Shown: positions 1,421 through 16,648 of the stretch, piece after piece | Layout: each line of letters opens with the position of its first letter | Position numbering within the stretch: the stretch's first letter is position 1 | Assembly: GCA_949295325.1 (NCBI GenBank) | Contig: CASFKG010000001.1 | Span: 263,665-327,664 of the forward strand | DNA from: an uncultured bacterium | GTDB taxonomy: Bacteria > Bacillota_I > Bacilli_A > RFN20 > CAG-826 | Reading direction: 5' to 3' | DNA: 64,000 nucleotides | Notes under the pieces: generated by a model | Told to the model about the DNA's origin: nothing | Seen by the model: the letters and a program-made list of their open reading frames with translations, nothing else | Database searches by the model: none | Made by a program: the position numbers and the translations under genes

Positions 1421-2956
1421 CTATTGGTAGCTGGCGATTATCGAAAGGGAGTTCTGGTACTGCTCGCTAACGATTTCGGAAATGGGCTTGTTCTGCGTCT
1501 GGGTATTGAAGGTCTGGTGCCAGACTTCGTTTAAGCCCTGGTTCATCTCGAGGCCGTAGACCTCGGAGTAGTACTCGGTGACTCCGCCCAAGGTGAAGTT
1601 CTCCTGCCTTCCGAGATACTGTCCGACCTCCTGGTAGAAGGGGTCTTCGAGCAAGGCCTCGTCTTCCATCGCGGACTTGCGCATCGGAAGGTGGCCTCCC
1701 TTTATCCAGTCGACGTATTGCCTGGACATGTAGTCGGCGAACACCATGCAGGCGGCCTTGACCGTGTCGCTTTCGACGGTCCTGGTCAGCGAGAAGGCGT
1801 GGCTGGTGCCGACGATCTTCGAAGCGGTGTCCGCGTCGGGGTCCATCGCGAAGAGGTTGCTCAAAGGAATGATGGCCACCCCTTCGGAGAAGCCGCCGCT
1901 GCCCAGGCCGATGGCGCTGTCGAAGATGGTCTTGTAGCCCTGGAGGTTCCAGGGGCCGGTGGAACAGAATATGTAATTGCCTTTGTAGAAGTCGCTGATG
2001 AAATCGTAGGAGGCCGAGGGCTTGATGACGGGACGCGAACCGTCGGTGGGATACATGTAGGTCCTCATTTCCTCGAAATAATCGATCGTGGACTGGGTAT
2101 TCCAGGCCGGCAAGCCCCTGGAGTCGACCATCTCGGTCCCGTTTTGGACGGGGCCGGTGATCGCGTAGCTAAGCGCGTCGTCGAGCGCCTCGATGGACAT
2201 GAACCAAGGATAAAGGGCCGTACCCGCCGGGCCGGTCAGCCAATCGAGGTCGGGATTGGTCTGGGCCGTGGGCATGTATTGGTAGGTTCCCGCGTAGGCC
2301 TTGTCGGCCAGGCCCTTGCACACCTCGATGAAACTCCGGTAGTCGTGAGGAACCTCGAATCCGTTTTTCTCGATGATGTCCTTGCGGGCGATTATCACGT
2401 TGCTATGGACGTCGAGCGGGAAACCGTAGAGGTGTTCGCTGCCGTTAGAATCCTCGAGATAGAGGTCGTCCATGATGTTGGCGTAGAAGTCGTCACGGTC
2501 GAAGTCGATGCGGCTAAGTTCGATGGCCTCCTCGAGGGGGAGGTATATCCCCTGGCTTTGGAGTTCCCTTATCCTCTCCCCGTGTCCCTGGACGATGTCG
2601 GGGGCCTGGTCTGGATCGTTCACCACGGTATTGACGATAGCGGAAGAAAACTCGTCGTGCCGCCTCTCGGAACGGTTGACGTGGATCCGGCCTTCGTATT
2701 CCTCGTTGAACTTGTCCACTATGCCCTGCTGGATGACGCCGTCGGCCCCGATGGATATCGACCAGAAATCGATTTCAACGTTGTTGAAGACGGGATTTCC
2801 GTCTTTGTCGTAGCTGAGGTCGCTTTCGTGGCCGCCGGTTGAAGAAGTCGTGTTCCCTTCGGTGGAAGAGCTGATAAGCCCCGGTACCCCGGTGGGGCCG
2901 CAGGCGCACAAAGCGGTAAGGGACATGCCCAGTATGGCGAGAGGCAGTTTCTTCAT
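1421..2956 (-). CDS. Extracellular solute-binding lipoprotein of the sugar ABC transporter
   Basis: Lipoprotein signal MKKLPLAILGMSLTALCACG; 511-aa SBP-like protein immediately upstream of the two permeases. Confidence 0.8.
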   Translation of the reverse strand: MKKLPLAILGMSLTALCACGPTGVPGLISSSTEGNTTSSTGGHESDLSYDKDGNPVFNNVEIDFWSISIGADGVIQQGIVDKFNEEYEGRIHVNRSERRHDEFSSAIVNTVVNDPDQAPDIVQGHGERIRELQSQGIYLPLEEAIELSRIDFDRDDFYANIMDDLYLEDSNGSEHLYGFPLDVHSNVIIARKDIIEKNGFEVPHDYRSFIEVCKGLADKAYAGTYQYMPTAQTNPDLDWLTGPAGTALYPWFMSIEALDDALSYAITGPVQNGTEMVDSRGLPAWNTQSTIDYFEEMRTYMYPTDGSRPVIKPSASYDFISDFYKGNYIFCSTGPWNLQGYKTIFDSAIGLGSGGFSEGVAIIPLSNLFAMDPDADTASKIVGTSHAFSLTRTVESDTVKAACMVFADYMSRQYVDWIKGGHLPMRKSAMEDEALLEDPFYQEVGQYLGRQENFTLGGVTEYYSEVYGLEMNQGLNEVWHQTFNTQTQNKPISEIVSEQYQNSLSIIASYQ

Positions 2957-3067
2957 GTTCGTCTCCTTTGTAACCGCTTACATAGTAGAGGCAAACGCCG
3001 TGTTTCAATTATCCCGGTTTTTCCAAAATGTTTACCCAAATTACCAAAATGCGTACAATGAAGACCG

Positions 3068-3901
3068 ATGCAAGGCCATTACCTGCCGATCCGGGAAGGG
3101 TATCTGTATACCGAATCCGCAAACGCCCGCGAACTCATATACGAGGGTTATCAATCCTGCGTAAACGCGATAAGCCTCATTTCCCCTTCGCCGGCGGTAC
3201 GGGTCGAATATTCCGGCAAGGAAGTGGACATGGCCGCCCCGTTCATATTCCTTTCCTTCGCCGGCGAAGGCGGAAGGATCCGCTCGGAAGAAGCATTCGG
3301 GCACAAGACCCTCTACTTCTCCGTCTTCGACTTCTTCACCGAGTACAACCGCATAAGCCTCGAAGGCCTCAAGATCCTCTACCCCGGGAGATACGCGCAC
3401 GAAAGGCTCCTCGACGTCAGGGACGAATTCCACTTATCCTTGTCCCATATCCTTTCTTCCGCGTTCATGCTCCTAAAAAGCAAGAACCCTTCCTTCCGGC
3501 TATCGGAAGAAAGGCTCATATACGAGTTCATCAGGCTCTATCAGAAGGAGATGGCCTACATTGGCGTCAGGGTTCCTACGAGCTACAAGAAGGGGCTTCT
3601 TAGTCCCGCCTTCGAATTGCTGGGGAACAAGGAAGGGCGGGCAAGCCTTGAAGACATGGCCAAGGCCTGTTCCTTGAGCAAGAGCACTTTCATCAGGAAG
3701 TTCAAAGACGAATACGGGGCCTCCCCCTCTTCCTATATGGAAATAGAAAGACTGAAGGCCGCGAAGTACTTCCTGGAGGAAACTAACGATTCCATATCCG
3801 ACATCGCCTATAGGCTTGGCTACTCGAGCCCTTCCTCCTTCGACCGAGCCTATAAGCGGGTATATGGCATCAGTCCGAAGGAAGAAAGGCAAAAAGTCTA
3901 G
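3068..3901 (+). CDS. AraC-family transcriptional regulator
   Basis: C-terminal AraC-type double HTH (SKSTFIRKFKDEYGASPSSYMEIERL...ISDIAYRLGYSSPSSFDRAYKRVYGISP). Divergent from the sugar ABC operon. Confidence 0.85.
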   Translation: MQGHYLPIREGYLYTESANARELIYEGYQSCVNAISLISPSPAVRVEYSGKEVDMAAPFIFLSFAGEGGRIRSEEAFGHKTLYFSVFDFFTEYNRISLEGLKILYPGRYAHERLLDVRDEFHLSLSHILSSAFMLLKSKNPSFRLSEERLIYEFIRLYQKEMAYIGVRVPTSYKKGLLSPAFELLGNKEGRASLEDMAKACSLSKSTFIRKFKDEYGASPSSYMEIERLKAAKYFLEETNDSISDIAYRLGYSSPSSFDRAYKRVYGISPKEERQKV

Positions 3902-3920
3902 GCACCATCGAAAACCGATA

Positions 3921-4046
3921 TGGCAAAAGTTGCCAAGGCATTGGCAAGAGGTGCAACTAACTTCGTATGAAACTTGCCAATGGTTAGGCAAGTGTTGGTT
4001 ATACACCATGCATAAAGAAAACTTGCCATTGGTTTGGCAAGTTTTT
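3921..4046. repeat. Three tandem copies of an imperfect palindrome with 7-bp arms TTGCCAA/TTGGCAA and a short variable spacer (copies at 3929-3948, 3973-3992, 4022-4041).
   Basis: Read directly: gttgccaaggcattggcaag, cttgccaatggttaggcaag, cttgccattggtttggcaag. The cluster sits at the left GC boundary, just downstream of the OLD gene stop. Confidence 0.6.
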
Positions 4047-4066
4047 ACAAATCTGAGCAATAAGGT

Positions 4067-5977
4067 TTAACCCTGCTTTAGCTGGGCAAAGAGTGTTTTG
4101 AAATGATCCAATGTATCCTGGCTTAGCTTCAGTTGCCCTTTTTCTAGCCTCTCCTTGAACAACGTGGCAGCCCAAATCCTTTTGTAGGCCTCGTCTTCGC
4201 TGTTGGCGGAAGGGATGTTGCCCCTGTCCTCTTTGGCGAAGAGATCTTCTATCTCCTTAATGGATTCGTCTTTATCGAAGATGTCCCTTAAGGTAAGAAC
4301 CGAAGACGATAAAGCCGTGTCCTCCGCGCTCTCTTGAAACTTCCTTCCAGCTTCGTCCCCGTCGACAAGGACACGGCTCTTATGGAAGTGGTAATTGCCA
4401 AACTGAACAATAAGTTTCCTGAGCCGTTCCTTGTCGCCCTTCCTCCCTAGCCCGTTGAAAGGAAGGAAGTAGAGTTTGTCCTCGTCTAGTACCTTCTTGA
4501 AGGCCGTGAGATAAGCATAATCGGTAAACCCTTCTACCCAGACGACGATGTGTTCATTGTCGTAAAGGATGTTTGTTTCAACCGTCAAAGCATCCTTGAT
4601 CGGCCTTAATGCATCGGCATCGTTATCATCCAAGACGGTGAATGTATTATTTATATGACTGCCCAGATCACCAGGTTCCACCACTCTAAGTTCTTCGTAG
4701 CTATCAGGATTTATATAGAAGGGAGAATGCGTGGATATCACCACGGTTATGCCATTTCTGCGGGCAAAATCTGTAATGAATTCCTTCAGTTCACTCTGCC
4801 CATGCGGATGGAGATTTGTCGCTGGTTCGTCAAGCAAAAGAATGTCACCGGGTTTGAGAATACTAGCCGCGCAGACCCGGAAATAGAAATCGAAAAACCA
4901 TTTGAATCCGGTGGACTGCTGGGCATAGTTAAGGGGGACTGGCTCCTCTCCGTTCCCTTTCTTGTATATGTTGAAGCAGATGTCGTTGGTCTCGATATCG
5001 AGTTCGAACATATAGGACTGCGAACCGGTGGAGTAGAGTTTGTTGAACCTGTTGGATATGTTCTTTTTGATCTTGGCGTTTATTTTCCTCTCCAAACTTT
5101 TGATGAAGGAAGTGCTTCCGCTTTCCCGGCACAGTTCATAGGCTACCGACACTTCATTTGTGTCGACCCCTATTAAGCCGAAGAGCGATGTGAAGAACGG
5201 CATTCTGGATAGTGACGAGGGATTGCAATGCAAGTCCGAGGAGGAAAACGGCTTATCGTTATAGGAAACTATATCCGGTTTAATTGCAAATCCGTATTTC
5301 TTTTGAAATTCGGTTTTGGCCTCTTCTCCCGAGCAAACTTTCTCATAGTAAGTATAAAGAACACTCTTTGAGAAAATCGCCTTAGCTTTGACCATATCCT
5401 TAATTTCGGCTCGCACGGAATAGTTATAACTATTCCTTCCTATAACGGTGGAATTGCCCCCGTTCTTGTATATGCTGAAGAAGGGCTTGATAGCGTTAAA
5501 CAAGTCTTCATTGGACGTTTTACCATCAAACAAAATTGAACTATATCCTTCCTCGGAAATCTTAAAGCAGCCGAGAATGGTTTCGGCCTCCGTTTTCAAG
5601 GAGTCTAAATCAGCCTCTAGGAAGGTTCTCATGGACATGACATCCCCTCCGCTAAACTGAAGAGTCTGGGAATTGGAATTACGGGATTTGGAAACACTGA
5701 CGTTGTAGTAATTGTCGCCGTCTAAATAGATAAGGTTCACTTCGGCATAGCGGTGATCCTTGGACGGCAGAAAGTTGGTAATGTCATTGTTGCTGATCTC
5801 TACTGTTCCCAAAGCCCTAAGACCATCGATAACGTTACTTTTGCCCGAATTATTTGGGCCGATGATAATCGCTAGTCCACCTTCGTTCCCTTTCTGCATG
5901 GACCTATTGAGTACGAATTCTTCGTCTTCCCCGACGCCAAGATTCCGGTAATCGTGGAACTTCACTATTCTTTTCAT
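4067..5977 (-). CDS. OLD-family (overcoming lysogenization defect) ATPase-TOPRIM nuclease, GajA/class-1 OLD-like
   Basis: N-terminal ABC-type ATPase: Walker A GPNNSGKSN, Walker B LLLDEPATNLHP, H-loop STHSP. C-terminal OLD-type TOPRIM: VVWVEGFTDYAYL (EG..D) and VLVDGDEAG (DxD). 636 aa. Confidence 0.75.
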   Translation of the reverse strand: MKRIVKFHDYRNLGVGEDEEFVLNRSMQKGNEGGLAIIIGPNNSGKSNVIDGLRALGTVEISNNDITNFLPSKDHRYAEVNLIYLDGDNYYNVSVSKSRNSNSQTLQFSGGDVMSMRTFLEADLDSLKTEAETILGCFKISEEGYSSILFDGKTSNEDLFNAIKPFFSIYKNGGNSTVIGRNSYNYSVRAEIKDMVKAKAIFSKSVLYTYYEKVCSGEEAKTEFQKKYGFAIKPDIVSYNDKPFSSSDLHCNPSSLSRMPFFTSLFGLIGVDTNEVSVAYELCRESGSTSFIKSLERKINAKIKKNISNRFNKLYSTGSQSYMFELDIETNDICFNIYKKGNGEEPVPLNYAQQSTGFKWFFDFYFRVCAASILKPGDILLLDEPATNLHPHGQSELKEFITDFARRNGITVVISTHSPFYINPDSYEELRVVEPGDLGSHINNTFTVLDDNDADALRPIKDALTVETNILYDNEHIVVWVEGFTDYAYLTAFKKVLDEDKLYFLPFNGLGRKGDKERLRKLIVQFGNYHFHKSRVLVDGDEAGRKFQESAEDTALSSSVLTLRDIFDKDESIKEIEDLFAKEDRGNIPSANSEDEAYKRIWAATLFKERLEKGQLKLSQDTLDHFKTLFAQLKQG

Positions 5978-5980
5978 TTT

Positions 5981-6385
5981 CTATTTCTCCTTTTTATTAA
6001 TCTCTTTTATCAATGCAAGGGCCAAATGTTGGCCGGAGACAGCGCCTTCGCCAAGAGCCTTGAGAAGGGCGGTTCCCAAACCGTCGTTCTCGGGCTTACG
6101 CAGTTCGAGTACGAGATTTTTCTCGGACTCGGTTAGATTCAACTCGCTTTGGTCTTCCTTCTTCCTATCAAGTAGGAATCCAATGACGTTTTCCTTCCCA
6201 CAGTATGGATGAGAATCGATGTATTTGAACACCGCTAAAGGAAGTTCTCCTATAGATTTAAATTTCCTTTGGTCATATAGGTCTATGAACTTATAGACCG
6301 TAGGCCTAGACAAAGACAAATAAGAAGCGAGTTCGGTTATCTTGATATCAAGGTCTACCAATCTGTCCTTCAGGTTTTCCTTCAT
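5981..6385 (-). CDS. Small HTH DNA-binding protein, likely regulator of the downstream OLD gene
   Basis: HTH segment ITELASYLSLSRPTVYKFI near the N-terminus. Its stop codon is 3 nt from the OLD-family gene start on the same strand. Confidence 0.55.
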   Translation of the reverse strand: MKENLKDRLVDLDIKITELASYLSLSRPTVYKFIDLYDQRKFKSIGELPLAVFKYIDSHPYCGKENVIGFLLDRKKEDQSELNLTESEKNLVLELRKPENDGLGTALLKALGEGAVSGQHLALALIKEINKKEK

Positions 6386-6547
6386 GATAAGACATTATAT
6401 TATTTTACATTTTTTGTAAATACTATTTTACTATATCCGTAAAGCACAGCATTGAAATAGCGAAGGTGTTTGAGCTAATGAAAAAAGAAACATTCCTCGT
6501 AGAAAAAACGAGAACAATAAGAAACGATTGATTAAGAAGAACGAAAA

Positions 6548-6572
6548 CTCGCCAAATCATTGGCAAGTTTTG
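6548..6572. repeat. Fourth copy of the TTGCCAA/TTGGCAA palindrome (ctcgccaaatcattggcaagtttt), same orientation as copy 3
   Basis: Read directly. It abuts a TTGAAA -35-like hexamer (6570-6575) and lies upstream of a perfect TATAAT at 6608-6613, in the region between the divergent HTH and NTase genes. Confidence 0.55.
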
Positions 6573-6782
6573 AAAAGGATCGTCTAACGCTTTAATACCG
6601 ACTCCACTATAATGGCGCGATTTGAGGAACCGACCCTTCAAATGGTAGGAATGGGCACAAATAACTTTAGGAGGGGTTTTGATTATGTATCACTACATCG
6701 ATGACAAAGACTTTCTTCGCGAGCTCAATACATACGGAGGAATCTCACCAATGAACTCGGGCAGGCCATCAACAAAGGGCAT

Positions 6783-7334
6783 TTGAAAGTCAAATGCTAC
6801 CTAGTCGGCAGCGGTGCCCGAAGACTAATCACCCAAAACGGGAAAGAGCCGGTAGATCTGGACTACAACATCGTTATCATCGGAAATAAAAATGACTACG
6901 ATGCAAGAGAGTGCAAGGAAATGATCAGGGAGGGATTGAACAGGGTTCTTAAAAAGTATGGTCTACCAGATTCTCATGACTCGACTTCCTGTCTAACTAC
7001 CGACGGAATTGGTCCAACGGGAGGAAACAATACTCCGTTCAGTTTGGATATAGCTATTTTGAAGAAGACTGGAAAACAAGGACACTTGTCGCGGCTTATC
7101 CATTTCAAAACAGGTAATGTCGGTAATGATACCTATACCTGGAATGAGGTACCGAATACCAATGGGCTAGAAGAAAAAGTAAAAGCCCTAAGGGAATATG
7201 GCTATTGGTCAGAGGTACGCCAAGCCTACCTCAATCTAAAAAACATGTATCTAAATAAAAGGGACCATAATCATCCTTCATACATCTGCTATATGGAAGC
7301 GGTCAATCAAGTATTCCACAAAAATTTGAAATAG
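6783..7334 (+). CDS. Nucleotidyltransferase-fold protein (Pol-beta/MNT/KNTase-like). The N-terminus is uncertain.
   Basis: LVGSGARRLITQNGKEPVDLDYNIV matches hG[GS]x(9-13)Dh[DE]h (GSxAR...DxD). The frame is open from 6705, but the only RBS+ATG (AGGAGG...ATG at 6685) is in another frame; see findings. Confidence 0.5.
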   Translation: MKVKCYLVGSGARRLITQNGKEPVDLDYNIVIIGNKNDYDARECKEMIREGLNRVLKKYGLPDSHDSTSCLTTDGIGPTGGNNTPFSLDIAILKKTGKQGHLSRLIHFKTGNVGNDTYTWNEVPNTNGLEEKVKALREYGYWSEVRQAYLNLKNMYLNKRDHNHPSYICYMEAVNQVFHKNLK

Positions 7335-7444
7335 ACAGTCAACCGCGATCCAAGAAATTATCGTTTGTAGAATGGCTTCATTAGGGAGCCTGATTCTTTA
7401 GGGTTCCTTAAACCTAACACGAAACAAATTTTTGCGGTGAAACG

Positions 7445-10171
7445 TCATTGCTTGCGTTTAACGGTTTCGATTCCGTATAGGTTTGAAAGTATATACGCAT
7501 CTGCCTTTTCGTTTGGCTTTTTCAGATTCCCAAGGACGCGCTTTTGTGTCTCGGGACTCCAATATATCTTTAGAGTTTCCTTGGCTCTTGTTATTGCGGT
7601 GTAGAAGACATTCAAATCGACCCTATCTTCAACCTCTCTGGAAATTACGACTTTGACCGATTTGTATTCCAGTCCTTGGGCCCGATGGACGGAAACGGCG
7701 TAGGCAATCTGAAATGGAATGACTGACGAATGGTTTGGAAAATCTTTCTCCCCAATATTTGGATCTTTTTTAACATCGAAAGATATAACGGAGTGTTCGT
7801 CATCCACTCGCTTTTCAAGCCGATAATACCCCAAGTCGCCTTCGTCGGAGACCGAGGCCTCTACTAAAACCTTGAAGTACATTCTTTCCGAATCTTCGTT
7901 GAGATCGATTATCTTCCCTTTGGTATTGTTGTGGATTAAGGAAGTGGAAGCCCACGCATCGTTAAACAAAATCGGATCGCCTATCTTGAAAGTATCGAAG
8001 CCATAGGTTACTGACTTTTCGTGGTTATTGGCCTGAAGCAGCTTATTTATATTGTTTATGCCATATAGCCCACCGTAATTGAGGCACAATATGATTTCGT
8101 CGTCGTCTTCCCGTTTAAACAAAGATTCGTCCAGTTTTGCAACGTAGCCGCCGGTTAAGAACAGTTCGTCTATCTTACCTTCGTTATTTCTGACCGCACC
8201 CCAAAGAGTCTTAAGATCATTGTTGGTCGAACGATAGGTATTCTTAAGTTCGATAACGTAGGGCCCCTTGAGGAAATATCTGGCAATGCCGAACCAGTTG
8301 CCGAATGTGATTGATTCGATTTGATACTCGTCGCCGGCTAAAACCAAGCAGTTGAATTTCCCCGCTTTCAAAATCGACATCATCTCGGAATTGTTGACCG
8401 TACTGCATTCGTCGATAAACAAAACATCGCAAGCAAAGCGATTTGGATCTTTGAGATATTTCGTAATTGTCGAATAACGGTGGTTTCTTTCCGTTTTTCT
8501 TTTAAGATTGTCAACTGCGGAATTAGTATTGGCCAAAAACACCATTTTTGCGTTGCCCCAAAAATTAGCGATGTGCTTCATCAATGTGGATTTGCCAGTG
8601 CCGGCAGAGCCATAGATAAAAGCTACCCTCGATTGGTCGAACATATGGATCATCGCATCTTTTTTCACTTCGTCGTCTATAGGATACGATCCTAGCCACT
8701 TCTTCACCTTTTCGGCATAACCGTCGATTCCAGAAGAAACATATGTCTTTAAGGTTTTGATTATTTGGGCTGTATCATCAGCATATTGGTCAATGTAGTA
8801 GAGGTTCTTTCCGAATATCCTTAAGCGGCGATTAGCGTGACCGGAATATAAGTTCTCGTTGTAACGTTTAATGCAATTATCAATATCTTGGAAGGAATCA
8901 AGATCGGATTTTTTTGTAAATATCTCCCTGTTGACCTCGGCATTGTTCTTTACCTGTCTTGCTAGGAATTCGTGTTCGCGGCCATCTGGTGGAATCGAAT
9001 ACAAAACATCGAAAAAGTCCGGATTATGATTGCAAAGCGAAGTACAAAAAGGCATTTTATCGAACGGGATGCAGCCTGGTTTTAAATACAGTCTCGATAA
9101 TGCTTTACATTGTTGTAATGCCGTTTGGTCTTTTATGACTTTGTTGTTCATCTTAAAAAGGAGATAACGGAGGACATTGCCACCTTTGGCGTCTTTTTTG
9201 CTTAAAATGATCTCTCTGCAGCAGTCAAGCAGAAGGCAGATCGGAGAACTCGATTTACCATTTGTCATCTCTTGTTTGAATGCTTCGTATCCCTCATCAT
9301 CCAGGGTAACAATGCGCGTAAGAGACATGCGCTTTTCCTTAATATAATTCATTAATGGCAGATAGTCAGAACCATAACCGATTCTGGTATTAAGCCGGCC
9401 AAACAAACAGGCAAAGTTATTTAGTTCACACGGACGTATGGAAACATAGTATTTATCTATCACGAGCATAGGCATATTCCTGCCTAGAATCCTGACAGTG
9501 CCGACGAAAGCCTCGACCTTGATGGAATAGTTGTCCATGACTTTTTCTTTGGAAAAGGCGATTACCCTTCCGAATTTGCTAGCATTATCAATAGCATTTC
9601 CCAAAGTTATTTGGTAATAGACTTTCTTGTTGGCAAAGAACGGTTTAACCCTATAGACGTAGTAACGGCCGTCCAGTCCCGCAGGTTTACGGGATCTGCT
9701 GGGGTTTTCAATCTCTTCGGCGACTTTTTCGTAGTACTCGGATTGTTCCTTGTCGGTATCTAACGGGAAATCATGAATGTTATGCAAAAGTTCAATGTTC
9801 CATCCATCCTTGGCAAACTTTTTGGCTGTGACAAGAAAAGGGAGATAGTGAAGCATGAGCCTCTCCGAATCTTCGCCCGTCAGTGTGAAATGGGAAACGG
9901 ATATCTGGAGCAATTTGTGAAATTTGCTGAGCCACTCGCATCTGGCTTCGGCTTCCTTCAAATACGGTTTGATTTCACTGTCCCATTTGTGAGGAATAGG
10001 TTTACCCTCCATAACTAGCATATTAGCCATGAAACCTTCGACGAAATTACGGAGATTCGAAAGGATGTTCTGACTTAAGAGGGAGCGTTTGTCGGGTTTG
10101 TCTTTAAACTCCTCGATATTATCACAAATGACTTGATCGGCGTAAAACATCGAATCGATAATATTGGACAT
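7445..10171 (-). CDS. SF1B (RecD/Pif1/AAA_30-type) helicase with an N-terminal domain of about 490 aa of unknown function
   Basis: Walker A AFIYGSAGTGKST, Walker B VLFIDECS, motif III LAGDEYQ, motif VI VHRAQGLEYKSV, C-terminal YTAITRAKETL. I recognise no motifs in the first ~490 aa. Confidence 0.75.
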   Translation of the reverse strand: MSNIIDSMFYADQVICDNIEEFKDKPDKRSLLSQNILSNLRNFVEGFMANMLVMEGKPIPHKWDSEIKPYLKEAEARCEWLSKFHKLLQISVSHFTLTGEDSERLMLHYLPFLVTAKKFAKDGWNIELLHNIHDFPLDTDKEQSEYYEKVAEEIENPSRSRKPAGLDGRYYVYRVKPFFANKKVYYQITLGNAIDNASKFGRVIAFSKEKVMDNYSIKVEAFVGTVRILGRNMPMLVIDKYYVSIRPCELNNFACLFGRLNTRIGYGSDYLPLMNYIKEKRMSLTRIVTLDDEGYEAFKQEMTNGKSSSPICLLLDCCREIILSKKDAKGGNVLRYLLFKMNNKVIKDQTALQQCKALSRLYLKPGCIPFDKMPFCTSLCNHNPDFFDVLYSIPPDGREHEFLARQVKNNAEVNREIFTKKSDLDSFQDIDNCIKRYNENLYSGHANRRLRIFGKNLYYIDQYADDTAQIIKTLKTYVSSGIDGYAEKVKKWLGSYPIDDEVKKDAMIHMFDQSRVAFIYGSAGTGKSTLMKHIANFWGNAKMVFLANTNSAVDNLKRKTERNHRYSTITKYLKDPNRFACDVLFIDECSTVNNSEMMSILKAGKFNCLVLAGDEYQIESITFGNWFGIARYFLKGPYVIELKNTYRSTNNDLKTLWGAVRNNEGKIDELFLTGGYVAKLDESLFKREDDDEIILCLNYGGLYGINNINKLLQANNHEKSVTYGFDTFKIGDPILFNDAWASTSLIHNNTKGKIIDLNEDSERMYFKVLVEASVSDEGDLGYYRLEKRVDDEHSVISFDVKKDPNIGEKDFPNHSSVIPFQIAYAVSVHRAQGLEYKSVKVVISREVEDRVDLNVFYTAITRAKETLKIYWSPETQKRVLGNLKKPNEKADAYILSNLYGIETVKRKQ

Positions 10172-10774
10172 ACTAATCCTCCTTCCTTTCGAGTGTTCAA
10201 ATCCTTTAACTGGTGCCCCATTTTCTAGCTTGCCCCTCTAAGGCGGGGATAATTTTATCCATAATGGGGCAAATGTTTGAAGCAAAAACGTATTTTCATA
10301 AAAAACTCTTCGAAACGAGCATGAGCTCATTCTTTGGGCGAATAAAAAAGAAGTATTCGAGGTGATGTGGCGATTCCAATTGCAACCAAGCAAAGTAAAA
10401 AATAGAAAGCCGGACTCCTTGTCGTATGAAATGTTAAAGAGACACCATAATATCTTTTTTGCGAATATCCTAGCCTAGATCTTACCGTTCCTACGAATTC
10501 CTAGACTTTAGGATTAATAATCATGTTATTAGCAATTACTTTGTCATCATTTAAAACAAATTGGCATAAAAAGGATGCCATGCAGTGTACCGGTGACGAA
10601 GTAAGCGCCAATTCAAAATATCAGCATCTTGCCAGTCATGTCCGAAGAAAAGGGGCATGGTTAAAGTTCGCTGGGTTATATGATTTTTATATAAGCGAAT
10701 CCTTTGTTTTTAATTGCCTCAGAAGGAGGTAGCTGACGTTCAGGATTTAAGAATGAAAGTTTCCTCTGATAAGC

Positions 10775-11247
10775 TCAGTCCTTCTGCCTTTCTTTTAAAA
10801 CATTAAGAACCGATCCGCCCCAAGTTTCCGAACCGTTGTCGGATATCTTTTTTGCCGGATTGCCGGCAATGCAGATGTTCGGCGTTTTAAAGGATTTATT
10901 CACCAACGAGTCGGCGCCGATGGCGATTCCGTCCGCTATGGACACCCCCCAACCAGCGTGGAACCGGTGCCGATCGTTACGTTGTCGCCGATATCGGGAC
11001 TTGAGCCGTCATGGCCGCCGGCAACAAGAGAAACGTTGAACTGGACCGAAAAGTTCCTGCCTATGCGTGTCGCATTGATCATGATGTTATGCGGGTGGAA
11101 CATCAGAAAACCGGGCTCTATTACATTAAGGGGCAGGAAAACGCTGTACTTACGGGAAATCTTTGCCCTTAGGTATTTGATTAGAAACGCAGATAGTTTC
11201 CTTCCTCTTTTCCTAAGATATTCTTCTTTCCTTAATAGCGAGACCAT
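10775..11247 (-). pseudogene. Hexapeptide-repeat sugar/serine O-acetyltransferase (WcaB/CysE-like) interrupted by a frameshift at a C6 (G6 on the coding strand) tract
   Basis: One frame reads ...HPHNIMINATRIGRNFSVQFNVSLVAGGHDGSSPDIGDNVTIGTGSTLVGG and stops. The hexapeptide continues in another frame as VSIADGIAIGADSLVNKSFKTPNICIAGNPAKKISDNGSE. The junction is the cccccc run at 10945-10950. Confidence 0.6.
10945..10950. repeat. C6/G6 homopolymer at the frameshift point of the acetyltransferase gene
   Basis: gacacccccc aacc, read directly; adding one base or removing two restores the hexapeptide reading frame. A second G6 run sits at 11278-11283, about 31 nt upstream of the gene start. Confidence 0.6.
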
Positions 11248-11436
11248 CTTCCAAGCAATGGCGCGTTCAGATAAAACGGGGGGCGAAAAATAATCGGATG
11301 CTTATATCCATATAGAGAACCCTCGTATTCAATGAGTGCTTAGTAATTCTTAGCAAGACTTTTCATAAACATCGACAATCTGTTCAAAAAGGCCTCTTTT
11401 ATAACCATACAAGTCCGAGAAAAGGCAGGTGAGGTT

Positions 11437-12711
11437 TCAATCGTTTTGGGCGAAAATAGATAATGCATTTACCAACATTTTCTTGCACTTGCGGAAACAT
11501 CTTTTTAAAAATTGTTTAATTAAGGTATAGGAGTAATAGGGTAAAGAAAGCGTTTTTCCTGCTCTTCTTTCAAAATTCTGAGAAACGAACCATTTTAACT
11601 CCTTTGGGAGATTCTCGGTCCCGTAATGACGAAGAGCCGTATTTTTAATATCAGCAAAAATAGAAACCTTATCCGGGGCTAAAAGAGCATGACGAATGCT
11701 CTTTTTTAAGGTATTAAAATCTATATCTGGAAGCCCTATGAGCGATGTGTCACAACCGTTTGCTTTGCCAGCCAAAAACGAACGACAGCACTTTTCGCAA
11801 TGGCCACAGTTTTCCCCGCTTTTGTCCTCCCAACAAACGTGAAGGTTTAGCCTAATGGCGTTCTCAGAACAGAAATCACTTATAGTCTTGACCTTTTCAC
11901 ATCTGGCTGCTTCGAAACCCGAATGAATAACCTCGAGGCCACCAAGCGCGAAAGCCTCGTCGGCATCAGGATTTGAAGAACAAGGAAAACGGGATTCTGC
12001 TGTAAAACTTGCTGCGATAAAAAGGTATTTCAAACCTAAGGCATATGCTGGGCAAGCTGCCAAAGAAAGTAGGGCCTGGCCATGTTCAAAATCATGCCAC
12101 CATTCAAAGCCGTGCTTGCCAACTATTCCAGTAAGATAACCCTCGTTGATGACTTTCCGGAAATTCGATGTAATTGAATGAAGTTTCTTTTTGAAGGCAC
12201 GTGCTGTTTCTCGAGCGCCGTCGTAAACTCGCTCCCACCCAGTTTCATCTTCAACCGGAATATCGCTTCCGTGAACGATAAATAAATCACTGATAGATTT
12301 TCTTTCCTTTATTAGGGAATAGGTCGCGTCAATACCATTTGAAAACAACAATCCGCCGCCGCTTAAAGATTTATTGTTATCAACAATTTGCTTTGCTATG
12401 ACACTTCCGCCTAAAGGCTTAAGACCAGGATCTTTTTCGTACGCTTTTCTAATGGCTTCAACCCTTTCGAGGTACGTTTTGTCCAATTCGTCTACATGGA
12501 TACATGCGTCGAGGACAAAAGCAATCGGTAAAAGCAACCCCAAGGCAGGAATAACACAAATTGAATTAGGAACCGATGATATGTCATCGCTATAATCGGT
12601 CTTCAAAAACGTGGGATTATTTGGGAAAAGTGCGCTTGGACAATCAATTCCCTCGATTTTTAGTGAAATGCTATGACGCGTTCTAGAATCAACGTGAATA
12701 TAGAAGTCCAT
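11437..12711 (-). CDS. PP-loop ATP-pyrophosphatase-like protein (QueC/N-acetyl-sugar amidotransferase WbpG-like) with an atypical P-loop
   Basis: Degenerate PP-loop LFSNGIDATYS in place of SGGxDS. QueC-like zinc motif CGHCEKCC (CxxCxxC). It sits at the edge of a polysaccharide cluster. Confidence 0.4.
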   Translation of the reverse strand: MDFYIHVDSRTRHSISLKIEGIDCPSALFPNNPTFLKTDYSDDISSVPNSICVIPALGLLLPIAFVLDACIHVDELDKTYLERVEAIRKAYEKDPGLKPLGGSVIAKQIVDNNKSLSGGGLLFSNGIDATYSLIKERKSISDLFIVHGSDIPVEDETGWERVYDGARETARAFKKKLHSITSNFRKVINEGYLTGIVGKHGFEWWHDFEHGQALLSLAACPAYALGLKYLFIAASFTAESRFPCSSNPDADEAFALGGLEVIHSGFEAARCEKVKTISDFCSENAIRLNLHVCWEDKSGENCGHCEKCCRSFLAGKANGCDTSLIGLPDIDFNTLKKSIRHALLAPDKVSIFADIKNTALRHYGTENLPKELKWFVSQNFERRAGKTLSLPYYSYTLIKQFLKRCFRKCKKMLVNALSIFAQND

Positions 12712-12733
12712 AACAATTCAATTATGCGAGTGA

Positions 12734-14719
12734 CTAATCGAATGTTTCAAGTACGCTATAATCAAAACCCAAGTGTTCAAAGACGAGCGTATCTAAAGTA
12801 CCTTTGAAGGATATTAAATATTTGTCAAAGTCACTGATATTGTCATAATTCTTAAAAAAGATAAAGCCGGAAGGTTTTATCCATTCGAATATACCTTCTA
12901 CTTTAAAATTATAATTACCAAACGCAATCGTTGGAGTGGAGGTAAGATATCCGAAGACCATCCCATGCAGCCTGTCAGTGACAACAAACTTAGAGTTCGT
13001 ATAGTGCCGTAAAAACCTTTTTAGAATTTTTTCCCGATTAATCGGCGTTATGCGAATAGGCAAATTAGTGTCTATTCTTTCAACGGCGGAGCCGGATTTC
13101 GAAATAGAGTCCAACATTTCATTTGAAAATTGATCCGGCATGGCTTTTTCAACATCATTTCTCAAAACAGCTAAACATTTATCTTCCCTTGTAGCTTTTG
13201 ATTTGAAAGGCTCTAGACGAAGAGCCATGTCAGGGCAGAGCCGGATATCGCACGAAGGAAAATATGTCCTAGCAGTGACGAGCGAAAAACGCTCGCGAAC
13301 AAACAATACTAATCGCTTGCTTTCGGAATAAAAAAGCGATGACAAATGGAGCTCCGTTTTGCCATCCTCATCACTTGTGAAAAAAACTGTTTGTGGGAAA
13401 ACGGCAGTCTTCGTATTGGGAAAATCATGTATAACCATTCTTCTCAGAAGCTCCTCAGAAAGATACTGATTGCCCAGATTGCCGCCGCCATGCAAATAAA
13501 TAATTCTAGGATCCTTGGTTTTTAGAATCGATCGGAAGGAAAGATAGAAGGATCCGGGAATTTCTATAACATGCTTCTTGCCATATTTTTTGTGTAAAAA
13601 GGAAAGCGAAGAAATTGCAATGGCTTGGTCCCCCAAATTGCCGTGGAGTGGCGTACCAATAAACAAAACAGAACCGTTCCCAAAAAAGCAGATCTTGACT
13701 TTTATTAAAATTTTCAGCCACCACAAAAGAGGGTGTTTAACTGATCGGGCAAATGATTTTAGAAGGTTTTCAACCTTAATAAAGAATTTATAGGCTCGTA
13801 AGGAAAAAAGGTAGGAAATCCCAAGGCAAAAAGCATGCCATTTAATATGGAAAAGATTTTTAGAGAGGGCTGAACGAAATTCATTGTTCCATGTCTTAAA
13901 TGCAACCTGGATGTCTTTGTTTGCTGATATTTGTTCCCACGCTTTAACACCTAGTCTTTCGCACATGCAGGCGGCATCCGAAGCCAATTTCCAATTTTTC
14001 TTGGATGAATAAAAAGCAAATCTATCGAGAAAAGCCCAGTTTGCATCAAGCTTTTTTATATCAAATGGTCGTTTAGTAATTGATCCGGAACGGTGCCTGT
14101 AGTAATAGAGGCGGTCATGTATAACAGAGATGCTCTCACATTTCCAAACAATATGGTGAAAGCAAAATTCATCTTCGTGAATTCTACCATTTGGGTATCT
14201 AATCCCATTGAACAACTCTCGCTTATAAAGTTTGTTCCAAGCAACGACGGAACAAACACCAGGCAAAGAGGTATTTAGAAATTCATCTCTCGCTAGAACA
14301 ACATCTCTTTTAATGCGGTCATGAAACGCAAAATCACTTATGTTTTCGTAATAATCAAAATAATCGCATATGCACAAATCTGAAGAACCGATTTTCTTTA
14401 CAAGCGTTTCGATCATGAATGGAGACAGGAAATCGTCCCCATCAATGAAAACAATATAATCGCCAGTCGACAAATCAATCCCGGTATTTCTGGCAGCAGA
14501 CAGGCCTTCATTCAAGACCTTGTCGATTGTCACAAATCTATGATCTGTTCCAGAAAACAAATGAGCAATTTCTGACGTTCTATCATTTGAACAATCATTG
14601 ATAACTAGTACTTCAATGTTTTGATAAGACTGCTTTTGAATTGAAAGAAGACACGCGTTCAAAAACTGATCCACATTGTAGGCCGCAACAATTATTGAAA
14701 CTTTTGAACACATTTTCAT
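12734..14719 (-). CDS. Bifunctional protein: N-terminal GT2 glycosyltransferase fused to a C-terminal polysaccharide pyruvyl transferase
   Basis: N-terminus VSIIVAAYNVDQFLNACLLSIQKQSYQNIEVLVINDCSNDRTSE (GT2). C-terminal half carries FIGTPLHGNLGDQAIAISSL (pyruvyl-transferase-like GNxGD). Confidence 0.65.
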   Translation of the reverse strand: MKMCSKVSIIVAAYNVDQFLNACLLSIQKQSYQNIEVLVINDCSNDRTSEIAHLFSGTDHRFVTIDKVLNEGLSAARNTGIDLSTGDYIVFIDGDDFLSPFMIETLVKKIGSSDLCICDYFDYYENISDFAFHDRIKRDVVLARDEFLNTSLPGVCSVVAWNKLYKRELFNGIRYPNGRIHEDEFCFHHIVWKCESISVIHDRLYYYRHRSGSITKRPFDIKKLDANWAFLDRFAFYSSKKNWKLASDAACMCERLGVKAWEQISANKDIQVAFKTWNNEFRSALSKNLFHIKWHAFCLGISYLFSLRAYKFFIKVENLLKSFARSVKHPLLWWLKILIKVKICFFGNGSVLFIGTPLHGNLGDQAIAISSLSFLHKKYGKKHVIEIPGSFYLSFRSILKTKDPRIIYLHGGGNLGNQYLSEELLRRMVIHDFPNTKTAVFPQTVFFTSDEDGKTELHLSSLFYSESKRLVLFVRERFSLVTARTYFPSCDIRLCPDMALRLEPFKSKATREDKCLAVLRNDVEKAMPDQFSNEMLDSISKSGSAVERIDTNLPIRITPINREKILKRFLRHYTNSKFVVTDRLHGMVFGYLTSTPTIAFGNYNFKVEGIFEWIKPSGFIFFKNYDNISDFDKYLISFKGTLDTLVFEHLGFDYSVLETFD

Positions 14720-15100
14720 GTATAAATTAGCGTAACTTTCTCTTCCCTAAAAATTGTCAACTAAAGTGCATAAGGGGAATTTGGAGGCTTTGGAGGTAGA
14801 TGCTTTTACAAATTAAATTTCATTTATTGTTTTCAGGAAAGCGCAGTTGCCAGACTCTATTCATGCCCTTTTATTTTAATGTTTTTCGCTTGTGCAGGCT
14901 ATAACCACATAAAAAGACCAGGGGCATAGACAATAATCGATGAAATTAATTTGTCTTTTTCTAGTTCCTTTCGTGACAGAGGAATTTTTCAGGATATAAG
15001 GGTACGCACTCTAGCGCCATGATCGATTTCTTAGCCTAGGAGTGTGGCATTCAAATCTACCCTACTAGTTACTATATTAAGGACACTAAAAACAGAGGAA

Positions 15101-16648
15101 TTAATTGGCAATTTTTCCCCGTTTCTTTTTAACGATAATAGTCAGATGTTGCCAAATGTATTTCAAGCCTTGGAAATTCAGTAGCCCAAAGAATATAAAA
15201 CCTATAGAAAGGGCGAGGATAAGGTCAAGCAGCAAGTCCGCGATCAGTATGGTTGTATTAATCAAAGACGCGAGAAAATATAATCCTGTTCCGCCGATCA
15301 TAATAATTGCGAGGCGAATAAACATTTCAATAAGATAATTCCTCGATGAAGTCAGAAAAACGTCACGATAAAGAATCATGGGCTCTCGCCAATAGGCGAA
15401 AACGATTCTTGAAATGCTAGTAGAAATTAAAATGCCAAAAATTCCAAGGAAGTATCCTAAAAGCACAGACAAAGCGAGATTAATAATAGTCGATACAACG
15501 GGCAACCATTTGACTTGGTCGAAAATTCCTGCAGTTTCCCGAAAAACCCATGTGTTTTGTTTTACGTTGCTTGTCACGAAAGCCAAGACAATTGCAAACA
15601 AAGTTGGAAAATCTAATAGATACTCTATCCCATAGCTAAACAAAATAAATTTGTTAAAGCATGCAAAAAAACAAAAAGCACATACGCCTGCAATAAAAAT
15701 ATTGATTTGTTCGAACGTATTGAACAAAGACAATTTTGCTTCAGGGGTTGGTGCTTCAAGCATGTAGTTCCCTACACTTGCTTTCACCGAAGCATAAATA
15801 ACATTGATAAACGAAACGACGCTGTTTACCATCGCTAGATAATTTGAATACAGGCCAACACTTATTGTGCCAACCAATATAGAAATCAATATATTGTCCG
15901 TGTTGTTCTGCAGTATGCCACAGACACGATAAATGAATGTAGACCTGACATTTCTGCCTATTTCTTTTTTGTCGGCATTAGAAAGAGGTTCCTTAGGCTT
16001 GTTTCGCAAAAATGGATAGAAATGGTTGGTTGCAATTGACTTGCAAAAATTCCCAATCAGATTGGTTCCTATGCCGACTGCAATGTAGATAAAATAATTC
16101 CTGAAAAGAATTAAAAACAAAATTCTCAAACCAAACTTTGCTATCTCAAATGCTAACCCAACAATATTTAATAAATAGGACTTTTGGTCAGCTGAAAGCA
16201 GTGTTGTTTTATAGACAAATAGATAAGAAGAGGAAGCTTCTATAACGAATAAAACGTAATACCATGTGAGATAATCAATGTTGGATGGAAGGTTTACGAT
16301 ATAAGGTAATAAGGGGATAAAAGCCAAACCGATGATAAGAATTGCGGCGGCAATGATTAAATAAACTTTCCTGAAAAATCGAACAAGTTGTGTGGTTTTA
16401 ATTTCGTCGTGCTCTTTGAGTGGCTTGTAGAAAGAAAACATCATTGCGGTAGCAATGCCCAAATCTGCTAATGAGAAAAGGGAAATTACATTTGAAAATA
16501 GACCGTTGATGCCAAGGTAAGAAGCATCAAGATACTGGACAAAAATAACCCGGGCTACGTAGTTTAGGACCAGAGAAACTATTGACAATGCAATAGAAAC
16601 AACAACGTTTTTTGTTGTTTTGACCGTCCTACTTCCGCTGCCAGACAT
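15101..16648 (-). CDS. wzx: Wzx-type polysaccharide flippase (MOP/PST family)
   Basis: 515 aa, polytopic, typical oligosaccharide-flippase-like hydrophobic profile, inside a glycosyltransferase cluster. Confidence 0.7.
   Translation of the reverse strand: MSGSGSRTVKTTKNVVVSIALSIVSLVLNYVARVIFVQYLDASYLGINGLFSNVISLFSLADLGIATAMMFSFYKPLKEHDEIKTTQLVRFFRKVYLIIAAAILIIGLAFIPLLPYIVNLPSNIDYLTWYYVLFVIEASSSYLFVYKTTLLSADQKSYLLNIVGLAFEIAKFGLRILFLILFRNYFIYIAVGIGTNLIGNFCKSIATNHFYPFLRNKPKEPLSNADKKEIGRNVRSTFIYRVCGILQNNTDNILISILVGTISVGLYSNYLAMVNSVVSFINVIYASVKASVGNYMLEAPTPEAKLSLFNTFEQINIFIAGVCAFCFFACFNKFILFSYGIEYLLDFPTLFAIVLAFVTSNVKQNTWVFRETAGIFDQVKWLPVVSTIINLALSVLLGYFLGIFGILISTSISRIVFAYWREPMILYRDVFLTSSRNYLIEMFIRLAIIMIGGTGLYFLASLINTTILIADLLLDLILALSIGFIFFGLLNFQGLKYIWQHLTIIVKKKRGKIAN

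What the first reader, a model, noticed from the sequence alone, without database searches (positions are those of the whole stretch)
6685..7334. NTase gene whose only RBS-ATG start is out of frame with the NTase reading frame
A strong RBS (taGGAGGggttttgatt) followed by ATG at 6685 opens a 33-codon ORF, MYHYIDDKDFLRELNTYGGISPMNSGRPSTKGI, ending with TGA at 6784-6786. The NTase frame is open from 6705 and reads ...NLTNELGQAINKGHLKVKCYLVGSGARR, a plausible helix-strand lead-in to the GS motif. It has no ATG, only a TTG at 6783 that overlaps the leader stop as TTTGA. This could mean a -1 frameshift (a sequencing error, a pseudogene or programmed), or a translationally coupled leader peptide.
Basis: seen in the sequence. 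Interest (0 to 1): 0.55.

Follow-up and report, generated by a model that had tools for sequence, protein, structure and literature searches.

The report
Frameshift-broken small nucleotidyltransferase gene
This is one gene for a small cGAS/CD-NTase-like enzyme, cut in two by a missing base near its start, so as written it is most likely a recently inactivated gene and not a leader peptide or a programmed recoding signal.

Summary
GGAGG (6670-6674) and ATG 6685 open a 33-codon ORF ending at TGA 6784-6786. The nucleotidyltransferase frame is open from 6705, and its first start codon is TTG 6783.

Homologs settle the interpretation. All 119 listed relatives, 80 of 80 genome loci and every complete viral locus encode a single protein of about 217 aa beginning MYHxIxDKxF. 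That sequence is the start of the 33-codon ORF. A family HMM places the frame switch between 6717 and 6744, equivalent to one missing base. The interval has no homopolymer and no slippery heptamer, and no relative carries the shift. TTG 6783 is the native Leu35 codon.

A second assembly (Logan, run ERR10610505) is 100% identical over 14.8 kb and includes the shift, so an assembler artefact is unlikely.

Best reading: an ordinary, evolutionarily recent frameshift null allele. The catalytic residues are still intact. The gene sits in a low-GC accessory island.

The family is unannotated. It has a CD-NTase fold, stands alone and often rides on prophages. That is mildly interesting but is separate from this finding. 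Interest is low.

The parts
6608..6613 (+). Possible -10 promoter box (TATAAT) about 70 nt upstream of the ATG
   Evidence: Read directly from the sequence. The consensus scan found no full -35/-10 promoter here, so this is inference only.
6670..6674 (+). Shine-Dalgarno sequence GGAGG, 10 nt before ATG 6685
6685..6786 (+). 33-codon ORF. Codons 1 to about 17 are the native N-terminus of the NTase (MYHYIDDKDFLRELNTY). The rest is an out-of-frame tail ending at TGA.
6717..6744 (+). Interval containing the frameshift (net -1, most simply one deleted base). It has no homopolymer longer than 2 nt and no X_XXY_YYZ heptamer, and it contains an internal GGAGG at 6736-6740.
   Evidence: HMM scores of all possible junctions plateau at 272.6-275.9 bits in this interval, against 256 bits for late junctions. 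Sequence.
6741..7334 (+). Native coding frame of the NTase downstream of the shift. It holds the rest of helix 1, the GS motif (G42 S43), the catalytic D58-x-D60 and D122, the C-terminal helices and the TAG stop.
6783..6785 (+). TTG, the first possible start in the NTase frame. It overlaps the stop of the short ORF as TTGA. It is the native Leu35 codon, a position that is M or L in homologs.
6779..6797 (+). Perfect 8-bp hairpin GCATTTGA-AAG-TCAAATGC (-7.0 kcal/mol) that covers the TTG and TGA codons. Probably incidental.
   Evidence: Three of 80 homologs fold at least as stably in the equivalent region, and the window holds 20 such hairpins in 64 kb.
7374..7390 (+). Weak terminator-like hairpin 40 nt after the stop codon

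Best explanation
Positions 6685-7334 are one gene of about 216 codons for a stand-alone NTase with a CD-NTase-like fold. It carries a single frameshift mutation, most simply a 1-nt deletion, between 6717 and 6744.

**Shown.** Both pieces match consecutive parts of one protein family, and no relative is split. The site is not repetitive or slippery. A second assembly gives identical DNA.

**Inferred.**

- Ribosomes that start at the strong RBS and ATG 6685 read about 17 native codons, run out of frame and stop at TGA 6784. They release a 33-aa peptide, and the catalytic core is not made.
- Any restart at the overlapping TTG 6783 would give a 183-aa protein lacking strand 1 and helix 1 (residues 1-33), which belong to the NTase core. 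That product is probably unstable or inactive.
- All family-invariant residues survive and the downstream frame has no further lesion, so the inactivation is evolutionarily recent.
- The gene sits in a low-GC accessory island next to defence-type genes, where loss-of-function alleles of costly genes are common.
For: - **Homolog length:** relatives are 214-281 aa (mostly 215-220) and cover 98-100% of the repaired protein. The only 183-aa hit is this contig itself.
- **N-terminus:** the alignment shows the MYHxIxDKxF N-terminus as nearly invariant.
- **Genome loci:** 80 of 80 give one full-length in-frame tblastn segment, and 64 of them start MYH.
- **Viral loci:** of 25, all the complete ones are in frame.
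- **Junction scan:** joining by -1 within 6717-6744 scores 272.6-275.9 bits, a late junction 256 bits and the TTG start 237.2 bits. Joining by +2 scores up to about 4 bits lower.
- **Model:** residues 2-4 form a strand and 8-30 a helix, with pLDDT of about 86-90.
- **Second assembly:** Logan contig ERR10610505_3527 is identical to window 1538-16385 with 0 mismatches.
- **Assembly quality:** the window is 89% coding in long intact ORFs.
- **Island composition:** GC is 42% in the gene and 38-45% in the island, against 55% in the flanks.
Against: - No reads were inspected. It is unknown whether ERR10610505 is the same read set as the one behind ERZ17292901, so a read-level error or a minority intact allele cannot be excluded.
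- No close relative exists (the nearest is about 52% identical), so neither the exact lost base nor the age of the lesion can be fixed.
- The expression signals look intact, there is a stop-start overlap, and a hairpin covers the TTG. These features would also fit coupled expression of a shortened protein.
- The window copy departs from 11 of 79 columns that are at least 90% conserved, against a family mean of 1.7. This could mean either a divergent lineage or a longer period of relaxed constraint.
Confidence: 0.8

Rival explanations
1. Sequencing or assembly error. The organism's gene is intact and one base was lost from the consensus.
For: A second 1-nt frameshift lies 3.6 kb away in a hexapeptide acetyltransferase-like gene, at a C6/G6 run (10945-10950). 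That is a typical error-prone context. No reads could be inspected.
Against: The NTase junction interval has no homopolymer longer than 2 nt. Two different assembly pipelines give identical sequence over 14.8 kb, including both shifts. The other genes in the 64-kb window are long and intact.
Confidence: 0.08
2. Functional two-piece expression. The 33-codon ORF acts as a coupling leader, and termination at TGA 6784 lets ribosomes restart at the overlapping TTG 6783. The restart is gated by hairpin 6779-6797 and produces a low dose of a 183-aa NTase.
For: There is a strong RBS and ATG, a TTGA stop-start overlap, and a perfect 8-bp hairpin over the TTG that upstream translation would open. The downstream frame and its catalytic residues are intact.
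Against: The 'leader' is the family's own conserved N-terminus, and no homolog starts at the equivalent position. The product would lack strand 1 and helix 1 of the core and loses 38 bits against the family HMM. TTG is the ancestral Leu35 codon. The hairpin is weak at -7 kcal/mol, and 3 of 80 homologs fold equally well in that region.
Confidence: 0.07
3. Programmed -1 ribosomal frameshifting produces the full-length NTase at a set ratio.
For: A net -1 shift is what is needed. An internal GGAGG lies at 6736-6740. An A_AAG_GGC heptamer sits in the zero frame at 6774-6780, with a hairpin starting at 6779.
Against: No X_XXY_YYZ or other re-pairing site exists in 6717-6744, where the ancestral frames meet. 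Shifting at 6774-6780 would put GGISPMNSGRPSTK in place of the conserved helix, scoring 256 against 276 bits. The hairpin overlaps the heptamer instead of lying 5-9 nt downstream of it. The fold z-score is only -1.4. None of more than 200 relatives has a frameshift.
Confidence: 0.03

Closest known systems
CD-NTases (cGAS/DncV-like nucleotidyltransferases, the CBASS cyclases CdnB, CdnE, CdnD, CdnG and DncV)
   Same: It has the Pol-beta NTase core with GS (42-43), DxD (58-60) and a third Asp (122). The best structural matches are all CD-NTases, led by DwCdnB 8ysd at E=1.8e-6 with TM-score (query-normalised) 0.50-0.57. Eight of 104 family members give weak hits to NCBIfam CBASS_cyclase_a.
   Different: It is only about 217 aa against roughly 290-390 aa, and covers about two thirds of a CD-NTase. 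It scores far below every curated family threshold (22 against 200 bits), and the window protein itself has no hit at all. No effector or other conserved neighbour appears in 80 loci. The product and activity are unknown.
Frameshift pseudogenes or null alleles of accessory genes
   Same: Two adjacent ORFs in different frames match consecutive parts of one protein. The lesion is a single indel in a non-essential gene within a low-GC island.
   Different: Nothing distinguishes this case in kind. The lesion looks young, with no further stops and invariant residues kept.
Programmed -1 frameshifting of the dnaX or IS3/IS1 type
   Same: The net shift is -1, there is an SD-like GGAGG inside the ORF, and a hairpin lies nearby.
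   Different: There is no slippery heptamer where the ancestral frames meet, the spacing of the only heptamer to the hairpin is wrong, and the shift is not conserved in any relative.
Translational coupling through overlapping stop and start codons (ATGA/TTGA type)
   Same: The overlap is TTGA, and the start codon is buried in a hairpin that upstream translation could open.
   Different: The downstream ORF is a truncated version of a protein whose N-terminus is encoded by the upstream ORF. The start codon is an ancestral internal Leu codon.

Membership tests
Pol-beta superfamily NTase / CD-NTase | An hG[GS] motif followed by a [DE]x[DE] metal-binding pair, with a third acidic residue on a neighbouring strand | tested here: met
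   LVGSGA (G42 S43), D58-L-D60 and D122 are invariant in 104 sequences.
Pol-beta superfamily NTase / CD-NTase | CD-NTase fold | tested here: met
   The AlphaFold2 model has pLDDT 87.2 and pTM 0.82. The top 28 Foldseek PDB hits are CD-NTases with E from 1.8e-6 to 5e-4 and TMq 0.39-0.57. The similarity is partial, because the targets are about 100 aa longer.
Pol-beta superfamily NTase / CD-NTase | Passing a curated sequence model (Pfam SMODS or DncV-like NTFase, NCBIfam CBASS cyclase or cGAS) | tested here: not met
   The window protein has no hit. Among 104 members, 8 hit CBASS_cyclase_a at no more than 22 bits (cut-off 200), and 1 hits PF21654 at E=0.024. A profile search of PDB sequences gave no hit at E up to 10.
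CBASS operon | An adjacent effector (Cap) gene conserved with the cyclase | tested here: not met
   Clustering of neighbours within 3.5 kb in 80 loci found no family present in more than 7 loci. Those recurring families were serine recombinases, HTH proteins and methylases.
CD-NTase | Synthesis of a cyclic or linear oligonucleotide signal | not testable with these tools
   This needs biochemistry on a repaired or homologous protein.
Programmed -1 ribosomal frameshift site | A slippery heptamer X_XXY_YYZ in the zero frame at the point where the frames must join | tested here: not met
   There is none in 6717-6744. The only heptamer, A_AAG_GGC at 6774-6780, lies downstream of the ancestral junction.
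Programmed -1 ribosomal frameshift site | A stimulatory structure 5-9 nt downstream of the slippery site | tested here: not met
   Hairpin 6779-6797 overlaps the heptamer. The 100-nt fold has a z-score of -1.4.
Programmed -1 ribosomal frameshift site | Conservation of the frameshift among relatives | tested here: not met
   None of 119 proteins, 80 genome loci or 25 viral loci is frameshifted. No close relative (more than 53% identity) exists for a test within the lineage.
Translationally coupled leader peptide | The downstream ORF encodes the complete protein, and homologs start at the equivalent codon | tested here: not met
   All homologs extend 33-40 residues further upstream, in frame.
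Frameshift-disrupted gene (pseudogene or null allele) | Adjacent ORFs in different frames that match consecutive segments of one homologous protein | tested here: met
Frameshift-disrupted gene (pseudogene or null allele) | The lesion is real in the DNA of the organism (read support) | tested here: inconclusive
   An identical sequence appears in a second assembly (Logan ERR10610505_3527), but the reads were not inspected and may be the same data.

The most novel reading that the evidence does not exclude
The split is exploited and is not simply a loss of function. Restart at the TTGA overlap, gated by hairpin 6779-6797, or rare -1 slippage would keep a potentially toxic stand-alone CD-NTase-like enzyme at a very low dose in this strain. 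Separately, the family itself (about 217 aa, no conserved partner gene, found in prophages between the terminase and portal genes) may be an undescribed single-gene signalling, defence or anti-defence enzyme.
Probability: 0.06. Interest if true: 0.55.

Novelty: new member of a known kind. Interest (0 to 1): 0.18.

Why it matters
As a frameshift it matters little. It is a routine annotation problem: the gene should be annotated as one disrupted CDS, not as a 33-aa ORF plus a TTG-start 183-aa ORF.

The by-product is more useful. The gene belongs to a widespread, unannotated family of very short proteins with a CD-NTase fold in gut and rumen Bacillota, Mollicutes-like lineages and their prophages. 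The family has no partner gene. An intact member such as P0119 or P0039 would be a reasonable target for testing in nucleotide-signalling or phage-defence studies.

Tried and rejected
- **Family libraries:** Pfam, PHROGs and NCBIfam gave nothing for the window protein, and PADLOC gave only E=0.026-0.042. A profile search of PDB sequences gave no hit.
- **BFVD viral structures:** only one meaningful hit, an uncharacterised giant-virus protein.
- **GenBank records:** phages gave two unannotated or hypothetical hits, and plasmids gave none.
- **Literature:** a search for stand-alone CD-NTases in prophages returned only general reviews.
- **Conserved partner gene:** none found.
- **Other frameshifted family members:** locus L106 looked N-terminally truncated (match from residue 40) but is an intact divergent subfamily that starts MAYEF.
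- **RNA genes:** Rfam and tRNA scans of the window were empty.
- **Phase variation:** rejected for the NTase site, which has no simple-sequence repeat.
- **4-nt ATAC repeat at 6728-6735:** considered as a slippage site, but a 4-nt gain would give the wrong frame and a 4-nt loss fits the alignment worse than a 1-nt loss.

Full report
**1. Observation**

- GGAGG lies at 6670-6674, followed 10 nt later by ATG 6685.
- The ORF from 6685 runs for 33 codons (MYHYIDDKDFLRELNTYGGISPMNSGRPSTKGI) to TGA 6784-6786.
- The second frame is closed by TGA 6702-6704 and is open from 6705.
- It contains no ATG, GTG or TTG until TTG 6783, and runs to TAG 7332-7334 (183 codons from the TTG).
- TTG 6783-6785 and TGA 6784-6786 overlap as TTGA.
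- Moving from the ATG frame to the NTase frame needs a net -1 shift, which is what one missing base would require.

**2. Source of the window**

The only near-identical database protein (P0001, 183 aa) comes from ENA assembly ERZ17292901, contig k87_11745807 (321,758 bp). The fetched locus is identical to the window, so this contig is the window's own source. A window position equals the contig position minus 125,449.

**3. What homologs show**

A search with the conceptually repaired protein found 767 relatives. The 119 listed ones, apart from the window's own protein, are 214-281 aa (mostly 215-220), 44-52% identical, and cover 98-100% of the repaired 216-aa query.

In alignments of 21 and 104 sequences the N-terminus MYHxIxDKxF is nearly invariant (M1 invariant; Y2, H3, I5, D7, K8 and F10 at 90% or more). 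It is identical to the start of the 33-codon ORF.

In one genome per species (GTDB), 332 stretches encode a relative. All 80 retained loci give one full-length, in-frame tblastn segment, and 64 of them start MYH.

There are 25 IMG/VR viral loci. The complete ones are all in frame. One apparent N-terminal truncation (L106) is an intact divergent subfamily that starts MAYEF.

It fails. The 'leader' is the gene's real N-terminus.

**4. Where the frames join**

I built a family HMM without the window sequence and scored every possible junction.

| Construct | Score (bits) |
|---|---|
| TTG-start protein (183 aa) | 237.2 |
| Whole 33-codon ORF joined late (6774-6783) | 256.0 |
| -1 junction anywhere in 6717-6744 | 272.6-275.9 |
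| +2 junctions | up to about 4 bits lower than -1 |

Both segments therefore carry independent family signal. The ATG frame contributes up to about codon 17. The start-less frame contributes from about 6741 (NLTNELGQAINK against consensus xIVNQLVQxINN). The simplest lesion is a 1-nt deletion within 6717-6744.

That interval reads TCGCGAGCTCAATACATACGGAGGAATC. It has no homopolymer longer than 2 nt, no simple-sequence repeat that would give the right frame change, and no X_XXY_YYZ heptamer.

TTG 6783 aligns with a position that is M or L in homologs, so it is the native Leu35 codon and not an evolved start.

**5. Tests for programmed recoding or coupling**

- The only zero-frame heptamer is A_AAG_GGC at 6774-6780, which lies downstream of the ancestral junction. 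Shifting there would replace the conserved helix with GGISPMNSGRPSTK, a loss of 20 bits.
- A perfect 8-bp hairpin at 6779-6797 (-7.0 kcal/mol) covers the TTG and TGA codons. It overlaps the heptamer instead of lying 5-9 nt downstream.
- The 100-nt fold around it has a z-score of -1.4.
- Three of 80 homologs fold at least as stably in the equivalent region.
- The window contains 20 such perfect hairpins in 64 kb.
- Restart at TTG is conceivable. The product would lack strand 1 (residues 2-4) and helix 1 (residues 8-30) of the predicted core. From what is known of the NTase fold, I infer it would be unstable or inactive.

**6. Is the lesion real?**

Logan contig ERR10610505_3527 (42,383 bp) comes from a second, independent assembly pipeline. 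It is 100% identical to window 1538-16385 and includes the frameshift. The rest of the window is 89% coding in long intact ORFs.

Reads were not available, and the two assemblies may share reads. A read-level error therefore remains possible, but it is unlikely in this non-repetitive context.

A second 1-nt frameshift lies 3.6 kb away at a C6 run (10945-10950, G6 on the coding strand). It splits a hexapeptide-repeat acetyltransferase-like gene, and the Pfam Hexapep match spans the repaired junction. It is also present in the Logan contig.

**7. What the gene encodes**

No Pfam, NCBIfam, PHROG or PDB-sequence model matches the window protein. Eight of 104 family members give sub-threshold hits to NCBIfam CBASS_cyclase_a, the best at E=5.7e-5 and 22 bits against a cut-off of 200.

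The AlphaFold2 model is confident (pLDDT 87.2, pTM 0.82). Its best Foldseek PDB matches are all CD-NTases, including CdnB, CdnG, CdnE, CdnD, DncV and CdnC, followed by OAS2 and cGAS. E-values start at 1.8e-6 and TMq is 0.4-0.57.

The GS motif, D58xD60 and D122 are invariant across the family and intact in the window copy.

The family has no conserved neighbour. It occurs:

- between the terminase and portal genes of prophages;
- next to serine recombinases, in 7 of 80 loci;
- in defence-type neighbourhoods;
- beside housekeeping genes.

It is a stand-alone, mobile, uncharacterised NTase with a CD-NTase-like fold. It fails the sequence-threshold and operon tests for CBASS membership.

The window copy is a divergent member. 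Its mean identity to the others is 49%, against 61% among the others. It departs at 11 of 79 highly conserved columns, mostly by conservative changes.

**8. Context**

The gene lies in a low-GC stretch (38-45%, against 55% in the flanks). Its neighbours are:

- a 636-aa OLD/GajA/AriA-like ATPase with a 134-aa HTH-like protein (4067-6385, minus strand);
- a 908-aa helicase (7445-10171, minus strand) that matches PADLOC candidate PDC-S53 over its full length.

**9. Verdict**

This is a single gene with an ordinary, apparently young frameshift lesion, giving a null allele or pseudogene (confidence about 0.8). The alternatives are a sequence error (about 0.08), a functional coupled or truncated product (about 0.07) and programmed frameshifting (about 0.03). 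The finding is real but ordinary. The unannotated family is the only mildly interesting by-product.

Noticed in passing
window 10775-11247 (minus strand); C6 run at 10945-10950: A second 1-nt frameshift. A hexapeptide-repeat acetyltransferase-like gene is split into a 103-aa ORF and a 56-aa ORF at a G6 run on the coding strand. G7 would read ...TLVGGVSIADG... in frame, and the Pfam Hexapep match spans the repaired junction. The shift is also present in the Logan contig. It lies next to glycosyltransferase genes, so it could be a phase-variable tract, a pseudogene or a homopolymer error.
   Followed up: partly
window 3925-3948, 3969-3992, 4018-4045 and 6544-6571: A family of palindromic repeats (AAAACTTGCCAnTGGTTTGGCAAGTTTT, an A-tract, stem and T-tract like a bidirectional terminator). 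Three copies lie just beyond the 3' end of the 636-aa ATPase gene, and one lies in the 300-bp AT-rich spacer upstream of the NTase gene. Together they bracket the ATPase plus HTH-like two-gene module.
   Followed up: no
window 7445-10171 (minus strand); loci L020 2097-4856 and L045 54-2636: The 908-aa SF1 helicase matches PADLOC candidate single-gene system PDC-S53 end to end (1086 bits). Helicases 39-40% identical to it lie beside NTase-family genes in 2 of 80 unrelated genome loci, directly upstream in L020. This may reflect a shared island type or a loose functional link.
   Followed up: partly
window 4067-6385 (minus strand): A 636-aa AAA_15/AAA_21 ATPase has its best PADLOC matches to AriA, NsnB, AbiLi, Old and GajA. 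It is followed 3 nt downstream by a 134-aa protein with only weak HTH matches. This looks like a two-gene defence-type module of unassigned type.
   Followed up: no
window about 4000-40000 against the flanks: A low-GC block (38-45%) sits between flanks of 55-56% GC. It includes the defence-type genes and a glycosyltransferase/pyruvyl-transferase polysaccharide locus.
   Followed up: no
loci L004-L006 (gene at 6001-6654 in L004): An intact family member (P0119) sits between the large terminase and portal genes of a prophage-like element, a typical moron position. In total, 25 IMG/VR viral contigs carry family members.
   Followed up: partly
protein P0067 (alignment A1, columns about 114-136): One homolog carries an internal tandem duplication of about 23 residues (MDSTSVLTTEKRHFTKGNHTEFS appears twice) inside the NTase core.
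   Followed up: no
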